Of a DNA stretch of 64,000 nucleotides, positions 44,401-55,187 are shown piece after piece. This DNA is from Gallionella sp. (lineage in GTDB: Bacteria > Pseudomonadota > Gammaproteobacteria > Burkholderiales > Gallionellaceae). Position 1 is the first letter of the stretch. Each line of letters opens with the position of its first letter. The stretch covers positions 1,589-65,588 of the forward strand of contig JAQVVH010000004.1 of the NCBI GenBank assembly GCA_028699065.1, given 5' to 3'. Under the pieces are notes generated by a model. The model ran no database searches, was not told where the DNA came from, and was given only the letters and a program-made list of their open reading frames with translations. A program made the translations under genes and the position numbers.

Positions 44401-46967
44401 GCGAGTGGGCGACCAAGCTGCGCACCGCCGGCGTGATGTACTTCATCGGCGGCTCGATCAGCGGCGCCGCCGTGAACACGCTGTCGATCCCCATGGTACT
44501 GGTGCCGCGCCTGTCGCTGCACACCGACTACCTGAACGCCTCAATGACCTCGCTCAAGGCGTGGAAGGACTCGTGGCAGCACTACAACGTCCTGCGCGAC
44601 ATGGACAGGATGAAGAACCCCGACGCCGAGACCGCGGCGAAGCTGGACGCCGCCGGCATTACTAAGGAGATGCGCGCCTCCATCGTCGCCGCCGCCGATC
44701 ACATCTTCGACACCGAGATCCACCAGATGCTCGGCATCAGCCAGGGCTCGCTGTACTCCAAGAGCCGCAACGTGCAGCGCGCCGCCGAGGCGTGGATGGC
44801 ACCGTTCCGCGTGGCAGAACAGACCAACCGCTTGGCGTCGTTCATCGCCGCCTACAAGGTCGCCACCACTGGCGACGGTGTGAAGCAGGCCGATGGCACG
44901 TTCAAGCGACTCAGCGGGCAGGAACTGTTCCGCTTCGCAGGCGAAATGGTCGACGCTACGCAGAACAACTACAACGCCTGTGTAGACACCGACACAGAGT
45001 GTCTGACTGAAAAAGGCTGGCGCCGGTATGATGGGGTCAAAGCAGGCGACACGTTGTATGGAGTAGATCACGAAGGCGGGCTGGTCGAGACTATAGCGCG
45101 CCAAGTGAATGTGTTCCCCGGCGCACAACCCATATTGCGGTTCCGAAACGGGCGGAAGTTCGAGATGGTAGTGACGGAGAACCATGACTGCGTAGTTCAA
45201 AACTACAACAGCCGCGATAAGAAGTGGCAGAAGGTGCGGAAAGTTCCTGCAGGACATATTAAGCATAGCCACCACATGCTTCGGTCCCCGCTGCATGGGG
45301 AACTCGCTCGCGCAGAGACATATAGCGACGCCTTTGTGGAACTTCTAGGGTGGGTAGCGTCTGAAGGGTCATATGGAAAACTGACTACCCCAGGGCAGAT
45401 TGGCGATGTGAAAATATCACAGAGCCGAAGCCACAATCCGCAATATGTGATAGCGATAGAGTCCCTGTTGCAAGTGTTGGGCATGAAATATCGGAGGTAT
45501 GACAATCCGCATAAGGAGCACCCGAGCGGGCGCCCGCACGACATGGTCACTTTCACCATACAGGCGCCGGACTCGTGGAGAATACGAGAAGCGCTTCCGG
45601 ATAAGCGCGTAACCCCTGCGTTCGTGCGGAATCTCACAACCCCGCAGATGGCGTTGTTCTTGGCGTCGTTCACGCAGGGGGATGGGCACATCCCGCTCGT
45701 TGCCGGCAGTGGGCCGGTAATTACACAGAAATCACAGGAGACAATTGACGCGTTGCAGATGATGGCCACGCTGGCTGGGGTCACGTCTACGACGCATAAG
45801 GCGGCCGGGTTGGATTGGCACACCTTGTATTTGGGGGTAGCATCCAAACGCAGTCATATGCGTGCTATGCAAGTGACCAAGGGGGAAGTCGATACTGTGT
45901 GGTGCCCGACTACTGGTTGTGGCACATGGATCGCGCGGCGTAACGGGCGGGTGTTCGTGACTGGGAATTCAAATCGCCCGGGCATCATGAACAACCCGGT
46001 CGGTGCCCTGATGTTCCAGTTCAAGTCGTTCCCGCTGTTCATTATCGAAGCCGCGGCGCTGATGTATAAGCAGAGCCCGAAGTCCGCCGTCTACATGCTG
46101 CTGGGCCTCGTCGCGATGTCCGGCGTGCAGGGTCTGCCGTTCGCCGAGGAGATACTGAACCTCGTCGACGTCATCTCGCAGCGCCTGTTCGGATCGCCGT
46201 TCAACAGTCGCCGCGCCATGCGCAACGCCATCAAGACGGCATCCGACGCCGTTGGCGTCATGGACCTGTCCAACGCCGTCATGCGCGGCATGGTCAATGA
46301 GATCACCGGAGTCAACATCGCTACCCGGGTGTCGGGCGGCCTCCTGCCGGGAACGCGCATCGGCGCCGCCGACGCCACCGAAGGCCGTGTGCTGTCCGAG
46401 ATCGCCGGCGCCCCGTTCTCGATGGTGCAGGACACGATGAGCAACGTCGGCGGGTTCGTCAGCGGCGTCGCCACGGGCGACTGGCAGAAGGCGGCAGACG
46501 CCCTGCGCGCCGGCGGCCCGATCGCTGTGCGCAACGCCGTCAAGGGTGCCGAGCAGCTCAGTCAGGGCTACGCCAGCGACTCCAAGGGGCGGAAGGTCGC
46601 CGACGTGTCGACGGTGGACGGCCTGCTGCAACTGACGGGGCTGTCGTCCGCCGCCGTGCAGAAGATGAACGACATGCAGAGCATCATCATCCAGACCAAG
46701 GCGTTCCACACGCAGGTCAATCAGGACATGCAGAACCGCCTGGTCAAGGCCTACCGCGACGGCGACCAGGAGCGCATCCGCGAGACCCTCGACTTCGCCG
46801 CCAAGTGGAACGAGCAGAACCCGGCCATGCCGATCCTGCCCAACCCGTCGGCGCTGCGCCGCCAGATCGCGCTGGCCGGCATGCCGCTGAACCGTCGCGA
46901 GCAAGTGATGCTAGGGCGCCGGCTGGGCGGCGCGTTCGCCGATGTGACAGACCAGATGGCGGAATGA
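38433..46967 (+). CDS. Giant polyvalent virion/ejection protein with two HExxH modules, a PLxRFG-like motif and an intein
   Basis: 2844-aa ORF; HEAHH, HEGYH, FIEEIQSDW and YVPLRRYGDY motifs; intein at codon 2183. Confidence 0.75.
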   Translation: MADPLDLLAGDAGLDVTQPVAGADLLADPNAPGPFARGVKSGVAGVKGSLYGMGALAARGAANVLPAAAAPVATGLEQAALENVAAQNEIASQGAMSFEDVVADPSRAGEYFKFLLGNAVPSLAAMATGGGIGAGIGALAARGSAAALTARALGAVAPAVRTGALVGAVAPDFALEAGSIYPEALKTGVENPALRSVAGGAAAAALDFIPLLAAEKYLKPIGAGGIGALAKGALKGAPVGAALEGTQEALQSVVERGAAGNSLTDPAAVSDYINSFAGGAAPGAMFGAGIGARRQSVAPAAVPPVAETAPIVPDSGMIVPDSGTPAPASITPEALHADLTAQHAAATQQVTDHTALLGTLQQAQAEGEAKIKALAAEAKLPPGERRIKSEILAEKKDMAAQVKEVKAKIEEVGGQLNAARTTIGTLTPQLEAARQALPPAPLPEGTVPDLVQPEITPRAAPVVSDIIADPNLPPPTPAEQTDRAVKGVHALFREQGMPLTTTEESLATPPQTPREVALAKVEQRQPRESVPQASPAQMQAIEANAMSVIEPLAKTMAATKTKTPEAQAKVAAKLAKAMRGVVQEAAKQGSIEAAQQYVTDKLPNALKGHGVTADATDMAKAVNAGVGLARTLYSKGATKPATEVSKEQLGAAFGYFDPSTGNTYVREDLPPAVKRFVSAHEAHHATQDPEFMKKHPALAEIAASVFPGFKDPIGLMATMKASLTPERLKFYLDRVRGEQNSRAALTQDEFDALPEPAQFAAVDAYNRVMRAKGTALRQRMAQLIGDRPELKIMTFSATPDSPIGSYTRTGPLKAAISMALNAKEGLSVADHEGYHFAEDWLLTPGERRVAANALKAGKPLYTQLVARLQQYDRENGTSLTDEVTAIPAEARAYAFEFWRRGEFKADGALAKAWQKIKTFFERIVNAVNGLGFQSIEDVFVALDRGQMAEREMVAGDGGAFQSVAGGQSWYRSALTEAVAGIQSRQATAQGWKDQIKGLIANGKAKQVELDAVGLNEWLDLQQGKVTKDQVMAFLGENGVQVRETILGSAMPQARQDEYQQRLRDIEDMRDLGGRISHDEARRQIDALQQEFKVGEYGDPFDSTKFAAYQLPGGENYRELLLTLPAKQATQFFIAYKGDSTMGTGFATRQEAEAELADTFPGRNDLEVREGTGDRSTTTRTPENFRSSHFDQPNILAHIRFNERTGAEGKRVLFIEEIQSDWAQKGRKEGFASAAKPLKDITTEELRGILASLPQPTAQERAENYASDYEASADAIFELITANRTGELEGYDRIDRTSILRDVLVGDHNWTEQAANTLQQKLDGYGAIRAGTPSAPFVTKTEAWTALALKRMIRYAAENGFDSIAWTTGEQQAARYDLSKQVDHVAHYKDGSGHLRVAVQGMNGEEVWNAYDPTPKELEDTLGKEIAGKIANDEGADSGAGVKILRGLDLKVGGEGMKGYYDKIVVGVANDILKKLGGGKVGEVTINQDHDASQNTEKEWDEGVARWHLKRGGEIYVVDKNGMETRIKNELTLNAELDENGAPRGYVLGDTQGSSTQPGFTITPRLAENAANGLPLFSKAAVAKANRMAAGELEAMQSGEQYAHLIENANLSNDLFTRAFGVVKEDIVGGLGRWWTNTMSTPNYISAASAGFKNVYQAFNTYSRYRKILAEQLVRERLPSWYQASDADRKAAFDVMLKRTVGKFSTNSLELADLLRTLTPQQRTLYDQATGMIAGVLQRQFESQKVERQRQLTSPGAYDKWLAHRQEQMASLLDTGYVPLRRYGDYSVSVYMEAPDGSRVQAGLEFFASPSAAKAASIAYAREIERSGVALKVEMGRRSKNERDTGVSLEQFLGTLRRQGVDISQAERERLVVAMTNADSLVRTQMMRREGLAGYSTDGMRVLHEFGVNTTSEIAYARFAPVLDAALDGAEVTADVNSVTSEPVIQIGEAFGRREDGVENNLWKRDGPMSGFYKDRANAMADTTLSPDRQSEWATKLRTAGVMYFIGGSISGAAVNTLSIPMVLVPRLSLHTDYLNASMTSLKAWKDSWQHYNVLRDMDRMKNPDAETAAKLDAAGITKEMRASIVAAADHIFDTEIHQMLGISQGSLYSKSRNVQRAAEAWMAPFRVAEQTNRLASFIAAYKVATTGDGVKQADGTFKRLSGQELFRFAGEMVDATQNNYNACVDTDTECLTEKGWRRYDGVKAGDTLYGVDHEGGLVETIARQVNVFPGAQPILRFRNGRKFEMVVTENHDCVVQNYNSRDKKWQKVRKVPAGHIKHSHHMLRSPLHGELARAETYSDAFVELLGWVASEGSYGKLTTPGQIGDVKISQSRSHNPQYVIAIESLLQVLGMKYRRYDNPHKEHPSGRPHDMVTFTIQAPDSWRIREALPDKRVTPAFVRNLTTPQMALFLASFTQGDGHIPLVAGSGPVITQKSQETIDALQMMATLAGVTSTTHKAAGLDWHTLYLGVASKRSHMRAMQVTKGEVDTVWCPTTGCGTWIARRNGRVFVTGNSNRPGIMNNPVGALMFQFKSFPLFIIEAAALMYKQSPKSAVYMLLGLVAMSGVQGLPFAEEILNLVDVISQRLFGSPFNSRRAMRNAIKTASDAVGVMDLSNAVMRGMVNEITGVNIATRVSGGLLPGTRIGAADATEGRVLSEIAGAPFSMVQDTMSNVGGFVSGVATGDWQKAADALRAGGPIAVRNAVKGAEQLSQGYASDSKGRKVADVSTVDGLLQLTGLSSAAVQKMNDMQSIIIQTKAFHTQVNQDMQNRLVKAYRDGDQERIRETLDFAAKWNEQNPAMPILPNPSALRRQIALAGMPLNRREQVMLGRRLGGAFADVTDQMAE
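44979..45968 (+). mobile_element. Intein (330 aa) with in-frame LAGLIDADG endonuclease
   Basis: C1 CVDTDTECLT..GW, block B VTENHDC, LLGWVASEG and FLASFTQGDG, terminal WCP...VTGN followed by Ser; codon usage differs from the flanks. Confidence 0.92.
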
Positions 46968-53051: not shown

Positions 53052-55187
53052 TCATTCTACCGCAGATCGGATGCGGGCGAGGGCGATGTCGAAGTAGCCG
53101 TGTTCCTCGTCTGAGTCGATCCCCACAAACCCGAAGCCCTCCTTGAGCGCAGCCTTGCCAGTCGAGCCTGAGCCCATGAAGGGGTCGAGGACCGTGCCGC
53201 CTGGCGGCGTGACGAGGCGGCAGAGGTAGCGCATGAGTTCGGTCGGCTTCACGGTGGGGTGGTTATTCTTGACCTCGCGGGCCTTGTTGAACGCGCCGCC
53301 CTCTGCCGCGACAGTGTTGCCCCGCGCCGCCTCGGCTGCGGCTTGGCATGATCGTGCCAGAATCTTGTTGGGCTCCGCGTCCATCCCCTCGTTCCGATCC
53401 TTCTTACTTGTCTTGGCGCAGTAAAAGAACCGCGCGGCGCTGCCCGAACCCGAGTCGTGCGGCGTCCGTGGCCCGCCGAAGTATTCGCTCTTGCCCGTGC
53501 CGACGGCGCCGTCGCCATACCCTGTGATCTTGACCTGTGGCAGCGACCCACCTGACCCGTTGCTGTCGGGGAACAGGGCGAGCACCTCGTCGCTGCCGTC
53601 GTGGCAGAAATTTGCCGGCCATCTACCCTTGCTGCTGTCGAAGTCGGCGTCGGTACTCGGCTCGCCGAAGGTACTGCCTTGGGTCCGCTGCGCGGTGGCG
53701 AGCCCATACTCCGTGCGTTCGCGGCCCTCGACCCTGCACCCGTCAATATTGATCGCCCCCGTGCCATGCTGCTGCACGTTCGCTGCCACCGTACCAATCA
53801 GAGGCTTGCGGGCTACGATGACGGGCTCGAAGGCAGGTTTGAGTGCGGTACCCCAGCCTTCCCACTGCTTCGCGGCTTCGGTTGCTGGGGCGGTTAAGTC
53901 CGCTGACGTGCCTGCGAATTTACCGAGTGAAGTCGCGTCGTTCTTTGGGGTTTGTTGTGCGGCGCGGGGGTTGATGCCTACCGCCTCCCGCTCCACCCCC
54001 GCCGCCTTGTCGATCGCCTTGCTCACATCCAGCGACTTCGGAAACCCGGAGTTGCCAGTGAGAAACACCTTCCCGTTCCGGCGGGCGACGAACGCGCCGG
54101 TGCTGACGGTAGGGCAGAAGATCAGGCCAGTGTATTCGATGGGGGTAACAGTTGCCAGAGTGGTTTGATAGCTTGGCCGTGTTCGTACCGCTTGTGGCCT
54201 GCGTTCGACGCAAACAGCATCAGGTTCTCCAGCCGGTTGTCCGTCGCGTCGTGGTTGATGTGATGTACACACTCGCTGCGCGACAGCGGTCGCCCCATCT
54301 CCATCGCCACAATCAGGCGATGCTCCATGACGTAGCCATCCTTGCGGGCCATGTCCATGAACGCTACAGGACAACGAACGTACTTGATGGACTGGTTCGC
54401 GTACTTGCCCTTCCGTTTGAAGTAGGTCAGCCCGCCCTTCCATGCCGGGTTCTTCGGGCCAGCCATCCCCTTGCCGGGGCACTTCTTGCCCCTGCCGTTC
54501 GCCGAGTGCAGTTTCAGCCAGTCCTTCGCCTTGCCGCTGCACTTCCTCGAACAGTAGCGCCCCACGTCCTTGCGATAGTGCAGAAAGATCGCCTTGCAAA
54601 TACGGCACGTACTCCACGCCAGCGCATTCTTCTGCCGCCACGAATGCAAGGATTCCGCTTCGTTCAACAAGGCAACGATGGTTTCGACTGACGATCTGGT
54701 CCGTCGTATCTGACTCAATGTGATAGGCGGTATCTTGCTCGACACGATATTCAGACCACCGCTCGGGGTTCTCCCATTGGTAAACGTCGGTTTGAGGATC
54801 ATACGCCAGAATCTCCTTTGTTCTGGCTACATGGTAGCGTTCCCACCCATCTCTTGTCAACATCTCGGTGTCCTCGCTCAGGCACCCATACACCCACATG
54901 ATCGTGTCGCGGATCTCCCACCCGGCGTCCTCAATCGCTACCATCAGCCGGTGGAACGTGCGGGTGCCGCCGAACGCCAGAAGGTGAGCGCCTGGCTTGG
55001 CAACGCGCAGCGCCTCGACCCAGAACTCCTTGCCCGGCACGCCGTGGTCCCACCCTTTGCTCATGAAGTTCAAGCCGTATGGCGGGTCGGTCACGACGGC
55101 GTCGACGCTGTCAGCATCCATGGCACGCATGGCGTCGCGGCAGTCGGCGTTGATCAACAGCGCGGGTCCGGCTTCTTCGATTCTCAC
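53052..55187 (-). CDS. N4-cytosine/N6-adenine DNA methyltransferase (beta class) containing an intein
   Basis: TDPPYG, HPTVKP, LDPFMGSGSTG; extein junction WVYG/SGFPKS. Confidence 0.92.
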   Translation of the reverse strand: MRIEEAGPALLINADCRDAMRAMDADSVDAVVTDPPYGLNFMSKGWDHGVPGKEFWVEALRVAKPGAHLLAFGGTRTFHRLMVAIEDAGWEIRDTIMWVYGCLSEDTEMLTRDGWERYHVARTKEILAYDPQTDVYQWENPERWSEYRVEQDTAYHIESDTTDQIVSRNHRCLVERSGILAFVAAEECAGVEYVPYLQGDLSALSQGRGALLFEEVQRQGEGLAETALGERQGQEVPRQGDGWPEEPGMEGRADLLQTEGQVREPVHQVRSLSCSVHGHGPQGWLRHGASPDCGDGDGATAVAQRVCTSHQPRRDGQPAGEPDAVCVERRPQAVRTRPSYQTTLATVTPIEYTGLIFCPTVSTGAFVARRNGKVFLTGNSGFPKSLDVSKAIDKAAGVEREAVGINPRAAQQTPKNDATSLGKFAGTSADLTAPATEAAKQWEGWGTALKPAFEPVIVARKPLIGTVAANVQQHGTGAINIDGCRVEGRERTEYGLATAQRTQGSTFGEPSTDADFDSSKGRWPANFCHDGSDEVLALFPDSNGSGGSLPQVKITGYGDGAVGTGKSEYFGGPRTPHDSGSGSAARFFYCAKTSKKDRNEGMDAEPNKILARSCQAAAEAARGNTVAAEGGAFNKAREVKNNHPTVKPTELMRYLCRLVTPPGGTVLDPFMGSGSTGKAALKEGFGFVGIDSDEEHGYFDIALARIRSAVE
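54051..54884 (-). mobile_element. Intein (278 aa) in the methyltransferase
   Basis: C1 CLSEDTEMLT..GW, block B SRNHRC, terminal FCPTV...LTGN followed by Ser. Confidence 0.92.
54122..54802 (-). CDS. HNH endonuclease nested out of frame inside the intein
   Basis: CRIC..YCSRKC, KNPAWKGG, YVMEHR..MGRPL..E.VHHINH...DNRLENL; AAGGAG 10 nt before ATG 54802; true start uncertain. Confidence 0.85.
   Translation of the reverse strand: MILKPTFTNGRTPSGGLNIVSSKIPPITLSQIRRTRSSVETIVALLNEAESLHSWRQKNALAWSTCRICKAIFLHYRKDVGRYCSRKCSGKAKDWLKLHSANGRGKKCPGKGMAGPKNPAWKGGLTYFKRKGKYANQSIKYVRCPVAFMDMARKDGYVMEHRLIVAMEMGRPLSRSECVHHINHDATDNRLENLMLFASNAGHKRYEHGQAIKPLWQLLPPSNTLA

What the first reader, a model, noticed from the sequence alone, without database searches (positions are those of the whole stretch)
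54051..54884. Intein whose homing endonuclease is encoded in an overlapping, different reading frame
Seen in sequence: the methyltransferase frame has intact intein splicing blocks (C1, block B SRNH, terminal TGN/S), but its middle ~165 codons read as featureless sequence. The +1 frame over the same bases encodes a complete HNH endonuclease (Zn ribbon, KNPAWKGG, EHR..VHH..DNRLENL) with the phage's normal GC3 codon bias and a candidate RBS (AAGGAG, ATG 54802). The intein frame stays open throughout: by hand count about 19 T-ending HNH codons occur and none is followed by AA/AG/GA, which would create a stop. Established: canonical inteins carry the endonuclease in frame. Inference: this is a dual-coding selfish element in which splicing and homing are separate polypeptides, allowing independent expression of the nuclease by internal initiation or frameshifting. 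Similar architectures may already be reported for some phage inteins, which I cannot check here.
Basis: partly seen in the sequence, partly recalled or inferred. Interest (0 to 1): 0.88.

Follow-up and report, generated by a model that had tools for sequence, protein, structure and literature searches.

The report
Intein with overlapping out-of-frame HNH gene
A phage DNA-methyltransferase gene carries a self-splicing intein, and the intein's homing nuclease is a separate gene written one base out of step in the same DNA; this is real and selected in hundreds of relatives, but the general design was first published in 2025-2026.

Summary
An N6/N4 DNA methyltransferase gene lies on the minus strand at 53052-55187. 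At YG|SGFPKS it holds a 278-codon intein (54884-54051). A 226-codon HNH endonuclease ORF (54802-54122) lies in the +1 frame.

- **Both frames are kept open.** All 66 distinct relatives tested (35-62% GC) keep both frames open; the third frame has 7-32 stops. Shuffling synonymous HNH codons predicts 2.4-12 stops in the intein frame. None is seen.
- **Selection switches frame.** dN/dS is 0.21-0.26 in the intein frame over codons 1-80. It is 0.13 in the HNH frame over codons 86-245, and 0.04 in the intein frame over codons 254-278.
- **The HNH start codon is fixed.** The ATG is made by a Tyr-Asp pair, and the Tyr codon is TAT in 65 of 65.
- **Part of the overlap is truly dual-coding.** Over intein codons 28-85 (block B), synonymous codon choice is frozen (relative entropy 0.38, against 0.86-0.89 elsewhere).
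- **Predicted structures agree.** The intein frame gives a Hint fold plus a 128-residue disordered linker. The +1 frame gives a folded zinc-ribbon HNH nuclease.

Out-of-frame nucleases in inteins were published in 2025-2026, and a related "hidden" HNH is known in the same methylase family. This is therefore a new variant of a known kind. Splicing, translation start and cleavage are inferred, not shown.

The parts
53052..55187 (-). N6/N4 DNA methyltransferase precursor ORF (711 aa), read straight through the intein
   Evidence: ORF list. PF01555 E=4e-27 and phrog_67 E=1.6e-62.
54885..55187 (-). N-extein (aa 1-101, ending ...IMWVYG)
   Evidence: Aligns with the intein-less Pseudomonas phage PotUPM1 methyltransferase up to WVFG.
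54051..54884 (-). Intein, 278 codons (Cys1 ... Thr-Gly-Asn278, followed by Ser+1)
   Evidence: At least 116 homologous inteins of 157-351 aa, mostly 278-291, at the same site. C1, T61, H69, N278 and S+1 are invariant.
54570..54884 (-). N-terminal splicing (Hint) domain, intein codons 1-105, including blocks A and B
   Evidence: AF2 pLDDT 88-97. Foldseek matches inteins. Profile match to the AceL NrdHF intein 6zgq, E=2.2e-7. dN/dS 0.21-0.26 in this frame.
54813..54818 (-). Shine-Dalgarno-like AAGGAG, 10 nt upstream of the HNH ATG
   Evidence: An SD-core match is present in 23 of 64 relatives, mostly the GC-rich clade.
54122..54802 (-). HNH endonuclease ORF, 226 codons plus stop, +1 frame relative to the methyltransferase/intein
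   Evidence: A +1 ORF of at least 212 codons in 72 of 72 complete relatives. dN/dS 0.13. AF2 mean pLDDT 80. BFVD HNH and homing-endonuclease matches, E down to 2e-7.
54800..54802 (-). ATG start of the HNH ORF, formed by tATGat of intein Tyr28-Asp29
   Evidence: ATG in 64 of 64 relatives. Tyr28 is TAT in 65 of 65, never TAC, although Tyr35 is TAC in 56 of 58.
54629..54802 (-). Truly dual-coding stretch: HNH codons 1-58 (predicted hairpin plus two helices) over intein codons 28-85 (block B)
   Evidence: Relative synonymous-codon entropy 0.38, against 0.86-0.89 in the non-overlapped splicing parts; Mann-Whitney p=3e-10. Codons fixed where no stop is at stake: T52 ACC 63/63, G77 GGA 64/64. AF2 pLDDT 85-92 for HNH residues 1-50.
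54539..54607 (-). Zinc ribbon of the HNH protein (C66, C69 ... C84, C88)
   Evidence: All four Cys are invariant in 49 sequences.
54182..54451 (-). HNH catalytic core (NPAWKGG ... EHR ... VHHINHDATDNRLENLMLF ... HK..E)
   Evidence: PF13392 hit in 49 of 49 members. H180, H181, N200 and H203 invariant. pLDDT 88-96.
54183..54566 (-). Intein-frame reading of the HNH gene (intein codons 107-234): a stop-free, predicted disordered linker
   Evidence: pLDDT below 50 and no secondary structure. dN/dS 1.58 in this frame. No stops in 66 of 66 where 2.4-12 are expected.
54051..54173 (-). C-terminal splicing domain (intein codons 238-278, blocks F and G; Cys257, Thr276, Gly277, Asn278)
   Evidence: pLDDT 93-97. 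dN/dS 0.04. Synonymous-codon entropy 0.89.
53052..54050 (-). C-extein (SGFPKS ... catalytic and SAM-binding part of the methyltransferase)

Best explanation
This is a composite selfish element in a phage DNA methyltransferase gene.

**Two products from one stretch of DNA.** Ribosomes reading the methyltransferase frame make one precursor. In it, a mini-intein-like Hint domain is interrupted by about 130-160 residues of meaningless, disordered peptide. That peptide is simply the HNH gene read one base out of frame. The intein then splices out, linker included, and restores the methyltransferase. Separately, ribosomes start at a strictly conserved internal ATG in the +1 frame, 27 codons into the intein. 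From there they make a free-standing 226-aa nuclease with three parts: a short N-terminal module, a zinc ribbon and an HNH core. This nuclease most likely cuts intein-less methyltransferase alleles near YG|SGFPKS. Repair from the occupied allele then copies the whole element (homing).

**What selection maintains.** Selection keeps three things at once: the splicing residues, the HNH protein, and the absence of stop codons in the intein frame across the HNH gene. The first 58 HNH codons overlap intein block B, and both frames are selected there at the amino-acid level.

**Likely origin.** A free-standing HNH gene probably invaded a mini-intein. It is related at 33% identity to the hidden HNH of the mycobacteriophage "ShiLan domain".

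**Shown here:** the anatomy, the conservation, frame-specific selection, the predicted folds, empty alleles, and the mosaic pattern of transfer.

**Inferred:** splicing, internal initiation, and cleavage of the empty site.
For: - **Anatomy and domains:**
- **Family size:** 989 protein matches at E<=0.001 to the window methyltransferase's residues 95-400 (intein plus short flanks); the top 120 read through as one ORF and 116 of them carry a recognisable intein. 270 metagenome stretches encode a relative. 636 called HNH ORFs, many exactly 226 aa.
- **Both frames open:** true in 72 of 72 complete loci at 35-62% GC, while the third frame has 7-32 stops. Also true in MAG contigs and in long variants.
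- **Recoded example:** two contigs with TGA in the intein frame also use TGA at conserved extein Trp positions, so they are recoded and not broken.
- **Stop avoidance:** none observed against 2.4-12 expected in each of 66 sequences.
- **Third-position variability** switches phase at about codons 76 and 241.
- **dN/dS by frame and region:**
- **ATG and TAT invariance:**
- **Frozen synonymous sites over codons 28-85:**, p=3e-10.
- **Predicted folds:** the intein frame gives a Hint fold plus a disordered stretch at 107-234. The HNH frame is folded and matches viral HNH and homing endonucleases.
- **Empty allele:** Pseudomonas phage PotUPM1 reads WVFG|SGFPKS.
- **Transfer signature:** L076 and L077 share 99% intein nucleotide identity, but the downstream extein is about 35% identical.
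- **Deletion derivatives:** mini-inteins of 157-214 aa that have lost the HNH exist.
- **Internal control:** a canonical in-frame LAGLIDADG intein in this same phage has 22 and 14 stops in its other two frames.
Against: - There is no direct evidence for splicing, for translation from the ATG, or for nuclease activity or target.
- A Shine-Dalgarno-like motif is absent in 41 of 64 relatives.
- Pairwise dN/dS of the +1 frame over the overlap is 0.90. The case for selection on the N-terminal extension therefore rests on the codon-level analysis.
- The whole HNH model found nothing significant in the PDB by Foldseek or by sequence profile.
- Pfam does not recognise the intein.
- The intein lacks the penultimate His, and its mechanistic class is ambiguous.
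- For this window alone, an open shifted frame of this length occurs in 5% of comparable windows.
- The relatives share ancestry, so counts of sequences are not counts of independent events.
Confidence: 0.85

Rival explanations
1. The HNH gene is an independent free-standing homing or exclusion nuclease that uses the intein only as a safe harbour. It does not cut the methyltransferase insertion site. It may cut elsewhere in competing phage genomes, or serve the phage in some other way.
For: It is translated as a separate protein. Its relatives include intron-encoded and free-standing phage HNH enzymes. A 33%-identical HNH sits at a different site of the same methylase family with no intein around it (PMC11855218).
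Against: Every relative whose context was examined sits in this one intein, at this one methyltransferase site. No free-standing close relative was found. The intein and HNH move together as a unit between divergent exteins.
Confidence: 0.1
2. The nuclease is made by programmed ribosomal frameshifting from the intein frame into the +1 frame. The product would be a fusion of N-extein, the N-terminal intein part and the HNH, not a protein from internal initiation.
For: The +1 frame is open from upstream of the ATG in some relatives: the nearest upstream stop is 19-38 codons away in 24 of 64. Many relatives lack an SD.
Against: The ATG is invariant, and its Tyr codon is TAT in 65 of 65; a frameshift mechanism does not need this. 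In 33 of 64 relatives a +1-frame stop lies only 2-3 codons before the ATG. No conserved slippery motif was noticed, but none was searched for systematically.
Confidence: 0.04
3. This is an artefact or decay: a canonical in-frame HNH intein thrown out of frame by two sequencing errors or mutations, with the intein frame open by chance in GC-rich DNA.
For: In this phage, 5% of 168-codon windows are stop-free in the equivalent shifted frame. One relative (L098) really is frameshifted.
Against: The same +1 arrangement is present in more than 80 independent assemblies down to 35% GC, with no stops where 2.4-12 are expected. The HNH frame has dN/dS 0.13. No in-frame version was seen except the broken L098.
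Confidence: 0.01

Closest known systems
Non-canonical actinobacteriophage inteins with an endonuclease VII-like homing endonuclease in 'frame 3' (Gosselin, Arsenault & Gogarten, bioRxiv 10.1101/2025.01.02.630785)
   Same: The nuclease ORF is on the same strand, inside the intein, in a different frame. The intein frame stays open. The proposed origin is invasion of an intein by a free-standing nuclease gene.
   Different: The nuclease family differs (HNH, not EndoVII-like). The host gene differs (DNA methyltransferase, not DNA polymerase, minor capsid, TerL or thymidylate synthase). The hosts are broad environmental phages, not actinophages. [quoted passage not shown] Here 58 codons overlap block B, with selection on both frames.
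Cyanobacterial dnaX intein with an out-of-frame (+2) LAGLIDADG homing endonuclease (Phillips, DeSimone & Gogarten, bioRxiv 10.64898/2026.09.14.751524; first noted by Gorbalenya 1998)
   Same: An overlapping-frame nuclease inside an intein. dN/dS is low in the nuclease frame and inflated in the intein frame. Mini-intein alleles coexist with full ones.
   Different: That nuclease is LAGLIDADG, not HNH. That gene is chromosomal and cellular, not phage. The frame offset differs.
ShiLan domain: hidden out-of-frame HNH insertion in mycobacteriophage DNA methylases (Arsenault, Gosselin & Gogarten, Genes 2025, PMC11855218; PMC9957025)
   Same: It is the same methyltransferase family. The HNH is homologous (33% identity, tblastn E=2e-8). 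The HNH is out of frame and the host frame stays open.
   Different: The ShiLan domain has no splicing domain, sits at another site (EPxVVARKP) and presumably stays in the mature methylase. Its frame offset is +2 and its proposed start is GTG. Here the HNH lies inside the intein at YG|SGFPKS. In ShiLan gp65 that same site holds an allelic intein with an in-frame LAGLIDADG domain.
Fractured genes / AceL NrdHF split class 3 intein with an intervening free-standing GIY-YIG gene (Dassa et al. 2009, PMC2677866; Hoffmann et al. 2020, PMC7891396)
   Same: AceL NrdHF is the closest solved relative of this splicing domain (6zgq: Foldseek E=6e-6, target-normalised TM-score 0.72; profile E=2.2e-7). It also lacks the penultimate His. 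It also results from a free-standing nuclease gene sitting at the endonuclease insertion point of an intein.
   Different: There the host gene and the intein are split into two ORFs and splice in trans. Here the intein frame reads through the nuclease gene, so splicing can occur in cis.

Membership tests
Intein (Hint-domain protein-splicing element) | Nucleophile at position 1, block B TxxH, C-terminal Asn, and Ser/Thr/Cys at +1 | tested here: met
   C1, T61, H69, N278 and S+1 are invariant in 16-66 sequences.
Intein (Hint-domain protein-splicing element) | Hint fold | tested here: met
   AF2 pLDDT 88-97 for residues 1-100 and 241-278. Foldseek probability 1.00 to many solved inteins and to the Hedgehog Hint domain. 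Profile hit to 6zgq, E=2.2e-7. Pfam models do not detect it.
Intein (Hint-domain protein-splicing element) | In-frame insertion at a conserved site of a host protein, with intein-less alleles existing | tested here: met
   The insertion lies between YG and SGFPKS. PotUPM1 reads WVFG|SGFPKS with no insert. Mantra gp64 reads WLYG|SGFPKS.
Intein (Hint-domain protein-splicing element) | Actual protein splicing | not testable with these tools
   Inferred only, from purifying selection on the splicing parts (dN/dS 0.04-0.26).
HNH (His-Me finger) endonuclease, Pfam HNH_3 | Profile match above the curated threshold | tested here: met
   35.1 bits against a cut-off of 24.8. 49 of 49 family members match. 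15 PHROG HNH families match.
HNH (His-Me finger) endonuclease, Pfam HNH_3 | Conserved catalytic His/Asn/His and zinc ligands | tested here: met
   H180, H181, N200, H203 and C66, C69, C84, C88 are invariant.
HNH (His-Me finger) endonuclease, Pfam HNH_3 | Site-specific DNA cleavage of the empty allele (homing endonuclease function) | not testable with these tools
   Supported only indirectly, by discordance between intein and extein divergence.
Non-canonical inteins with an out-of-frame, same-strand homing endonuclease | A complete nuclease ORF inside the intein in another frame, while the intein frame has no stops | tested here: met
Non-canonical inteins with an out-of-frame, same-strand homing endonuclease | Nuclease frame under purifying selection | tested here: met
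   dN/dS 0.13 in the HNH frame against 1.58 in the intein frame over codons 86-245. Third-position phase switch.
Non-canonical inteins with an out-of-frame, same-strand homing endonuclease | Secondary ORF lies outside the splicing domain (typical of the published cases, not defining) | tested here: not met
   HNH codons 1-58 overlap intein codons 28-85, including block B.
ShiLan domain | Out-of-frame HNH insertion with no splicing domain, at the EPxVVARKP site | tested here: not met
   In the window, that site (FEPVIVARKPL) is uninterrupted. Here the HNH lies inside an intein at another site.
Split intein / fractured gene | N- and C-terminal intein halves encoded on separate ORFs | tested here: not met
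   A single uninterrupted ORF in the window and in all intact relatives.
Class 3 intein | No nucleophile at position 1; Trp at N3:12, Cys at C2:4 and Thr at C1:5 (the WCT triplet) | tested here: inconclusive
   Cys257 and Thr276 are invariant and the penultimate His is absent, as in AceL NrdHF. However, Cys1 is invariant and position N3:12 is Cys71, not Trp. Class 1 or class 3 cannot be decided from sequence.

The most novel reading that the evidence does not exclude
About 170 nt (54629-54802) would encode two folded, functional protein parts at once. In the intein frame they encode the block B strands of the Hint fold. In the +1 frame they encode an N-terminal hairpin plus a helix-turn-helix-like module of the nuclease (IPxTELNQIxQTKSSAExIVALLNE). 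On this reading, that module arose by overprinting on a pre-existing intein sequence and is needed for target recognition or nuclease function. The layout would then be an old, stable alternative design for mobile inteins, not a short-lived accident of invasion.
Probability: 0.45. Interest if true: 0.7.

Novelty: new variant of a known kind. Interest (0 to 1): 0.5.

Why it matters
- **Origin of inteins.** It supports the "splicing domain first, nuclease later" view. A free-standing homing-endonuclease gene can settle in an intein without fusing to it. The outcome can be stable for long periods if the host frame is kept free of stops.
- **A clean test case for overlapping genes.** Three kinds of constraint sit side by side in 834 nt: one frame only, the other frame only plus stop avoidance, and both frames at once. 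The family is large, spans 35-62% GC and includes a TGA-recoded lineage.
- **Annotation.** Gene callers either hide the nuclease or split the methyltransferase. Such elements are therefore undercounted.
- **Protein engineering.** The family shows that this intein tolerates a roughly 130-residue disordered insert.

Tried and rejected
- **HNH model against the PDB:** Foldseek with the whole HNH model gave nothing significant; I-HmuI ranked 21st at E=6.5. The HNH profile against PDB sequences gave only a BED zinc finger at E=0.12.
- **Pfam on the intein frame:** at most weak Hint_2 hits, in 5 of 49 members.
- **N-terminal 55 residues of the nuclease:** no Pfam family matches.
- **Free-standing or in-frame relatives of the HNH:** three longer called proteins were looked up. 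P0234 and P0220 have the same nested layout, split by the gene caller. P0210 (L098) is a frameshifted, decayed copy. The best phage-database hit (LR756508) is again the same layout.
- **Simple pairwise dN/dS for the +1 frame in the overlap:** uninformative at 0.90. It was replaced by the synonymous-codon analysis.
- **Explanations considered and rejected:** sequencing error, chance openness, split intein, and membership of the ShiLan domain.
Full report
**1. What is there**

The finding lies on the minus strand. ORF 53052-55187 (711 aa) is an N6/N4 DNA methyltransferase (PF01555, E=4e-27; phrog_67, E=1.6e-62). Between ...IMWVYG and SGFPKS... it carries 278 codons, CLSEDTEML...GKVFLTGN (54884-54051).

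In the +1 frame, a 226-codon ORF (54802-54122) encodes an HNH endonuclease. It scores 35.1 bits on PF13392 (cut-off 24.8) and matches 15 PHROG HNH families. AAGGAG lies 10 nt before its ATG.

HNH-frame GC3 is 0.79, like the exteins (0.78-0.84). The intein frame over the same bases has GC3 0.44. The 20 T-ending HNH codons in the HNH-proper part are never followed by AA, AG or GA.

The window is a 65.8-kb contig at 61% GC. Its two ends are an identical 127 bp, so it is probably a complete circular or circularly permuted phage-like replicon. It was assembled alongside a 1.96-Mb genome whose large contigs are at about 57% GC. The neighbouring gene is a primase/helicase.

**2. Is it more than chance?**

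For the window alone the evidence is moderate.
- Shuffling synonymous codons of the HNH gene gives on average 5 stops in the intein frame, and no stop in only 0.2% of shuffles.
- However, 5% of 168-codon windows in this phage's own genes are stop-free in the equivalent shifted frame.

The relatives settle it.
- A protein search found 989 matches (E<=0.001) to residues 95-400 of the window methyltransferase. The 120 best are all read as one ORF, and 116 of them carry a recognisable intein, mostly 278-291 aa.
- I fetched DNA for 4 viral, 80 metagenomic and 9 MAG loci.
- In all 72 complete loci, at 35-62% GC, the intein frame is open. The +1 frame holds an ORF of at least 212 codons, and the third frame has 7-32 stops.
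- Thirteen loci failed my pattern filter. Ten are merely cut by contig ends and one ends in TGN|N.
- The other two (L050, L052; identical over this region) have TGA codons in the intein frame. They also have TGA at conserved Trp positions of the extein, so this is a TGA=Trp recoded lineage.
- Synonymous shuffling of each of 66 distinct sequences predicts 2.4-12 stops in the intein frame. None is observed.
- A canonical in-frame LAGLIDADG intein elsewhere in this window (44979-45968) has 22 and 14 stops in its other two frames.

**3. Which frame is selected where**

In 13 distinct gap-free relatives, the most variable codon position changes along the element.
- Codons 1-75: the intein-frame third position.
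- Codons 76-240: the HNH-frame third position.
- Codons 241-278: the intein-frame third position again.

Nei-Gojobori dN/dS gives the same picture:

| Intein codons | Intein frame | HNH frame |
|---|---|---|
| 1-27 | 0.21 | 0.61 |
| 28-80 | 0.26 | 0.90 |
| 86-245 | 1.58 | 0.13 |
| 254-278 | 0.04 | 4.35 |

So the splicing parts are selected in the methyltransferase frame and the middle is selected as an HNH protein.

**4. The start codon and a truly dual-coding stretch**

The HNH ATG is the tATGat of intein Tyr28-Asp29. It is present in 64 of 64 relatives. The Tyr codon is TAT in 65 of 65, although Tyr35 is TAC in 56 of 58.

I measured synonymous codon diversity at conserved intein residues:
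- 0.86 of its maximum in codons 1-27;
- 0.89 in codons 246-278;
- only 0.38 in codons 28-85, the part overlapped by the first 58 HNH codons (Mann-Whitney p=3e-10).

Several codons in the overlap are fixed although no alternative would create a stop. T52 is ACC in 63 of 63, which gives Pro25 in the nuclease. G77 is GGA in 64 of 64, which gives Glu50. V73 is GTT in 62 of 62, which gives Leu46.

This is amino-acid-level selection on the +1 frame on top of intein block B. AF2 predicts a hairpin and two helices for this N-terminal part at pLDDT 85-92. High conservation imposed by the other frame could inflate that confidence.

A Shine-Dalgarno core is present in only 23 of 64 relatives, mostly the window's GC-rich clade.

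**5. Predicted structures**

The intein frame was modelled with 49 aligned sequences. Mean pLDDT per ten-residue block is 88-97 over residues 1-100 and 93-97 over 241-278; both parts are all-beta. Residues 107-234 have pLDDT below 50 and no secondary structure.
- Foldseek finds solved inteins and the Hedgehog Hint domain at probability 1.00. The best is the AceL NrdHF split intein 6zgq (E=6e-6, target-normalised TM-score 0.72).
- A sequence profile also hits 6zgq at E=2.2e-7.

The HNH frame gives mean pLDDT 80, with block means of 88-96 over the catalytic core (residues 141-210).
- It matches viral HNH, intron-encoded and homing endonucleases in BFVD, with E down to 2e-7.
- It gives nothing significant against the PDB.

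**6. Mobility and life cycle**

- **Empty alleles.** Intein-less alleles read WVFG|SGFPKS in Pseudomonas phage PotUPM1 and WLYG|SGFPKS in mycobacteriophage Mantra.
- **Discordant divergence.** L076 and L077 share 99% intein nucleotide identity and 85-98% over about 300 nt upstream. Identity is only about 35% immediately downstream. This mosaic is what homing or recombination at the element would produce.
- **Decay products.** In-frame deletion derivatives that lost the HNH exist (mini-inteins of 157-214 aa). One copy is frameshifted and decayed (L098).
- **Long variants.** Variants with extra zinc-ribbon modules (inteins of about 320-390 aa) keep the same +1 layout. They occur in MAG bins labelled Bacteroidetes, Kiritimatiellae, Methanospirillum and Liptonbacteria, and in a 484-kb uncultured phage.

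**7. Comparison with what is known**

The literature search shows the architecture is published:
- an EndoVII-like nuclease in frame 3 of actinophage inteins (bioRxiv 10.1101/2025.01.02.630785);
- an out-of-frame LAGLIDADG in the cyanobacterial dnaX intein (bioRxiv 10.64898/2026.09.14.751524);
- a hidden out-of-frame HNH, the ShiLan domain, in the same methylase family but without an intein and at another site (PMC11855218).

I reproduced the ShiLan layout in ShiLan gp65 and Mantra gp64. Their HNH is 33% identical to the window's. ShiLan gp65 also holds an allelic intein at YG|SGFPKS, with an in-frame LAGLIDADG (PMC9957025).

None of the papers I read describes an out-of-frame HNH inside an intein, a methyltransferase intein of this type, or a selected overlap with the splicing domain. 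[quoted passage not shown]

Earlier notes of this scan report the same methyltransferase-intein/HNH layout in other genomes. They agree with this reading, but they are not independent evidence.

**8. Verdict**

The element is best described as a mini-intein invaded by a free-standing HNH gene. It has since been stabilised as an overlapping two-gene unit: a separately translated nuclease, and a read-through linker kept free of stops. It is a new variant of a recently described kind.

Three steps remain inferred:
- splicing;
- internal initiation at 54802;
- cleavage of the empty allele.

Noticed in passing
L050:411-1250 and L052:64-903: A low-GC metagenomic contig with the same intein/HNH unit has TGA codons in the intein frame. 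It also has TGA at conserved Trp positions of the methyltransferase extein (MW*VYG). It therefore appears to use TGA=Trp (code 4-like). Under that code both frames are open.
   Followed up: partly
window 44979-45968 (+): This phage has a second intein, with a canonical in-frame LAGLIDADG domain, inside a very large (2845-codon) ORF. Its terminal splicing blocks resemble those of the methyltransferase intein (58% over 24 aa at the C-terminus, also ending TGN). Its two other frames have 22 and 14 stops.
   Followed up: partly
window 54051-54884 (-): intein residues C1, C71, C257, T276, G277: The intein combines an invariant Cys1 (class 1 hallmark) with an invariant Cys at C2:4 and Thr at C1:5, and it has no penultimate His. 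This resembles its closest solved relative, the class 3 AceL NrdHF intein, which has an MCT triplet; here the triplet would be CCT. The splicing pathway cannot be assigned from sequence.
   Followed up: partly
L076 and L077 (intein at L076:1501-2307 and L077:1058-1864): The inteins are 99% identical in nucleotides, and about 300 nt upstream is 85-98% identical. Identity falls to about 35% right after the intein. This is a sharp mosaic boundary at the C-terminal splice junction.
   Followed up: partly
L053, L054, L056, L063, L064, L066, L076-L081 and others, 20 nt upstream of the HNH ATG: In the AT-rich clade, many members have a tiny +1-frame ORF (ATG ATA GAA/AAA TAA/TAG) ending 2-3 codons before the HNH ATG. 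It arises from a second Tyr-Asp pair in the intein frame. It could be a termination-reinitiation device or a by-product.
   Followed up: no
L098:3001-4092: This is a decayed copy. An indel inside the zinc ribbon fuses the N-extein and the N-terminal intein part in frame to the rest of the HNH. The C-terminal intein part and C-extein are then in another frame, and the methyltransferase has an internal deletion.
   Followed up: partly
P0118, P0087, P0092, P0082 (proteins): These are in-frame deletion derivatives of the same intein (157-214 aa) that have lost all or most of the HNH gene. They are mini-inteins, as expected late in a homing cycle.
   Followed up: partly
L003:2256-4607, L093-L096, L099, L100: In these long variants of the family, the +1 ORF has one or two extra zinc-ribbon modules and the intein frame is 320-390 codons. 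The intein frame is still stop-free. One is in a 484-kb uncultured jumbo phage (LR756508). Others are in MAG bins of very different phyla, including a bin labelled as an archaeon.
   Followed up: partly
genome contig C8 (the window is C8:1589-65588): The first and last 127 bp of the 65,804-bp contig are identical, and its GC (61.3%) is higher than that of the large contigs (56-57%). It is probably a complete circular or terminally redundant phage-like replicon co-assembled with its host.
   Followed up: partly
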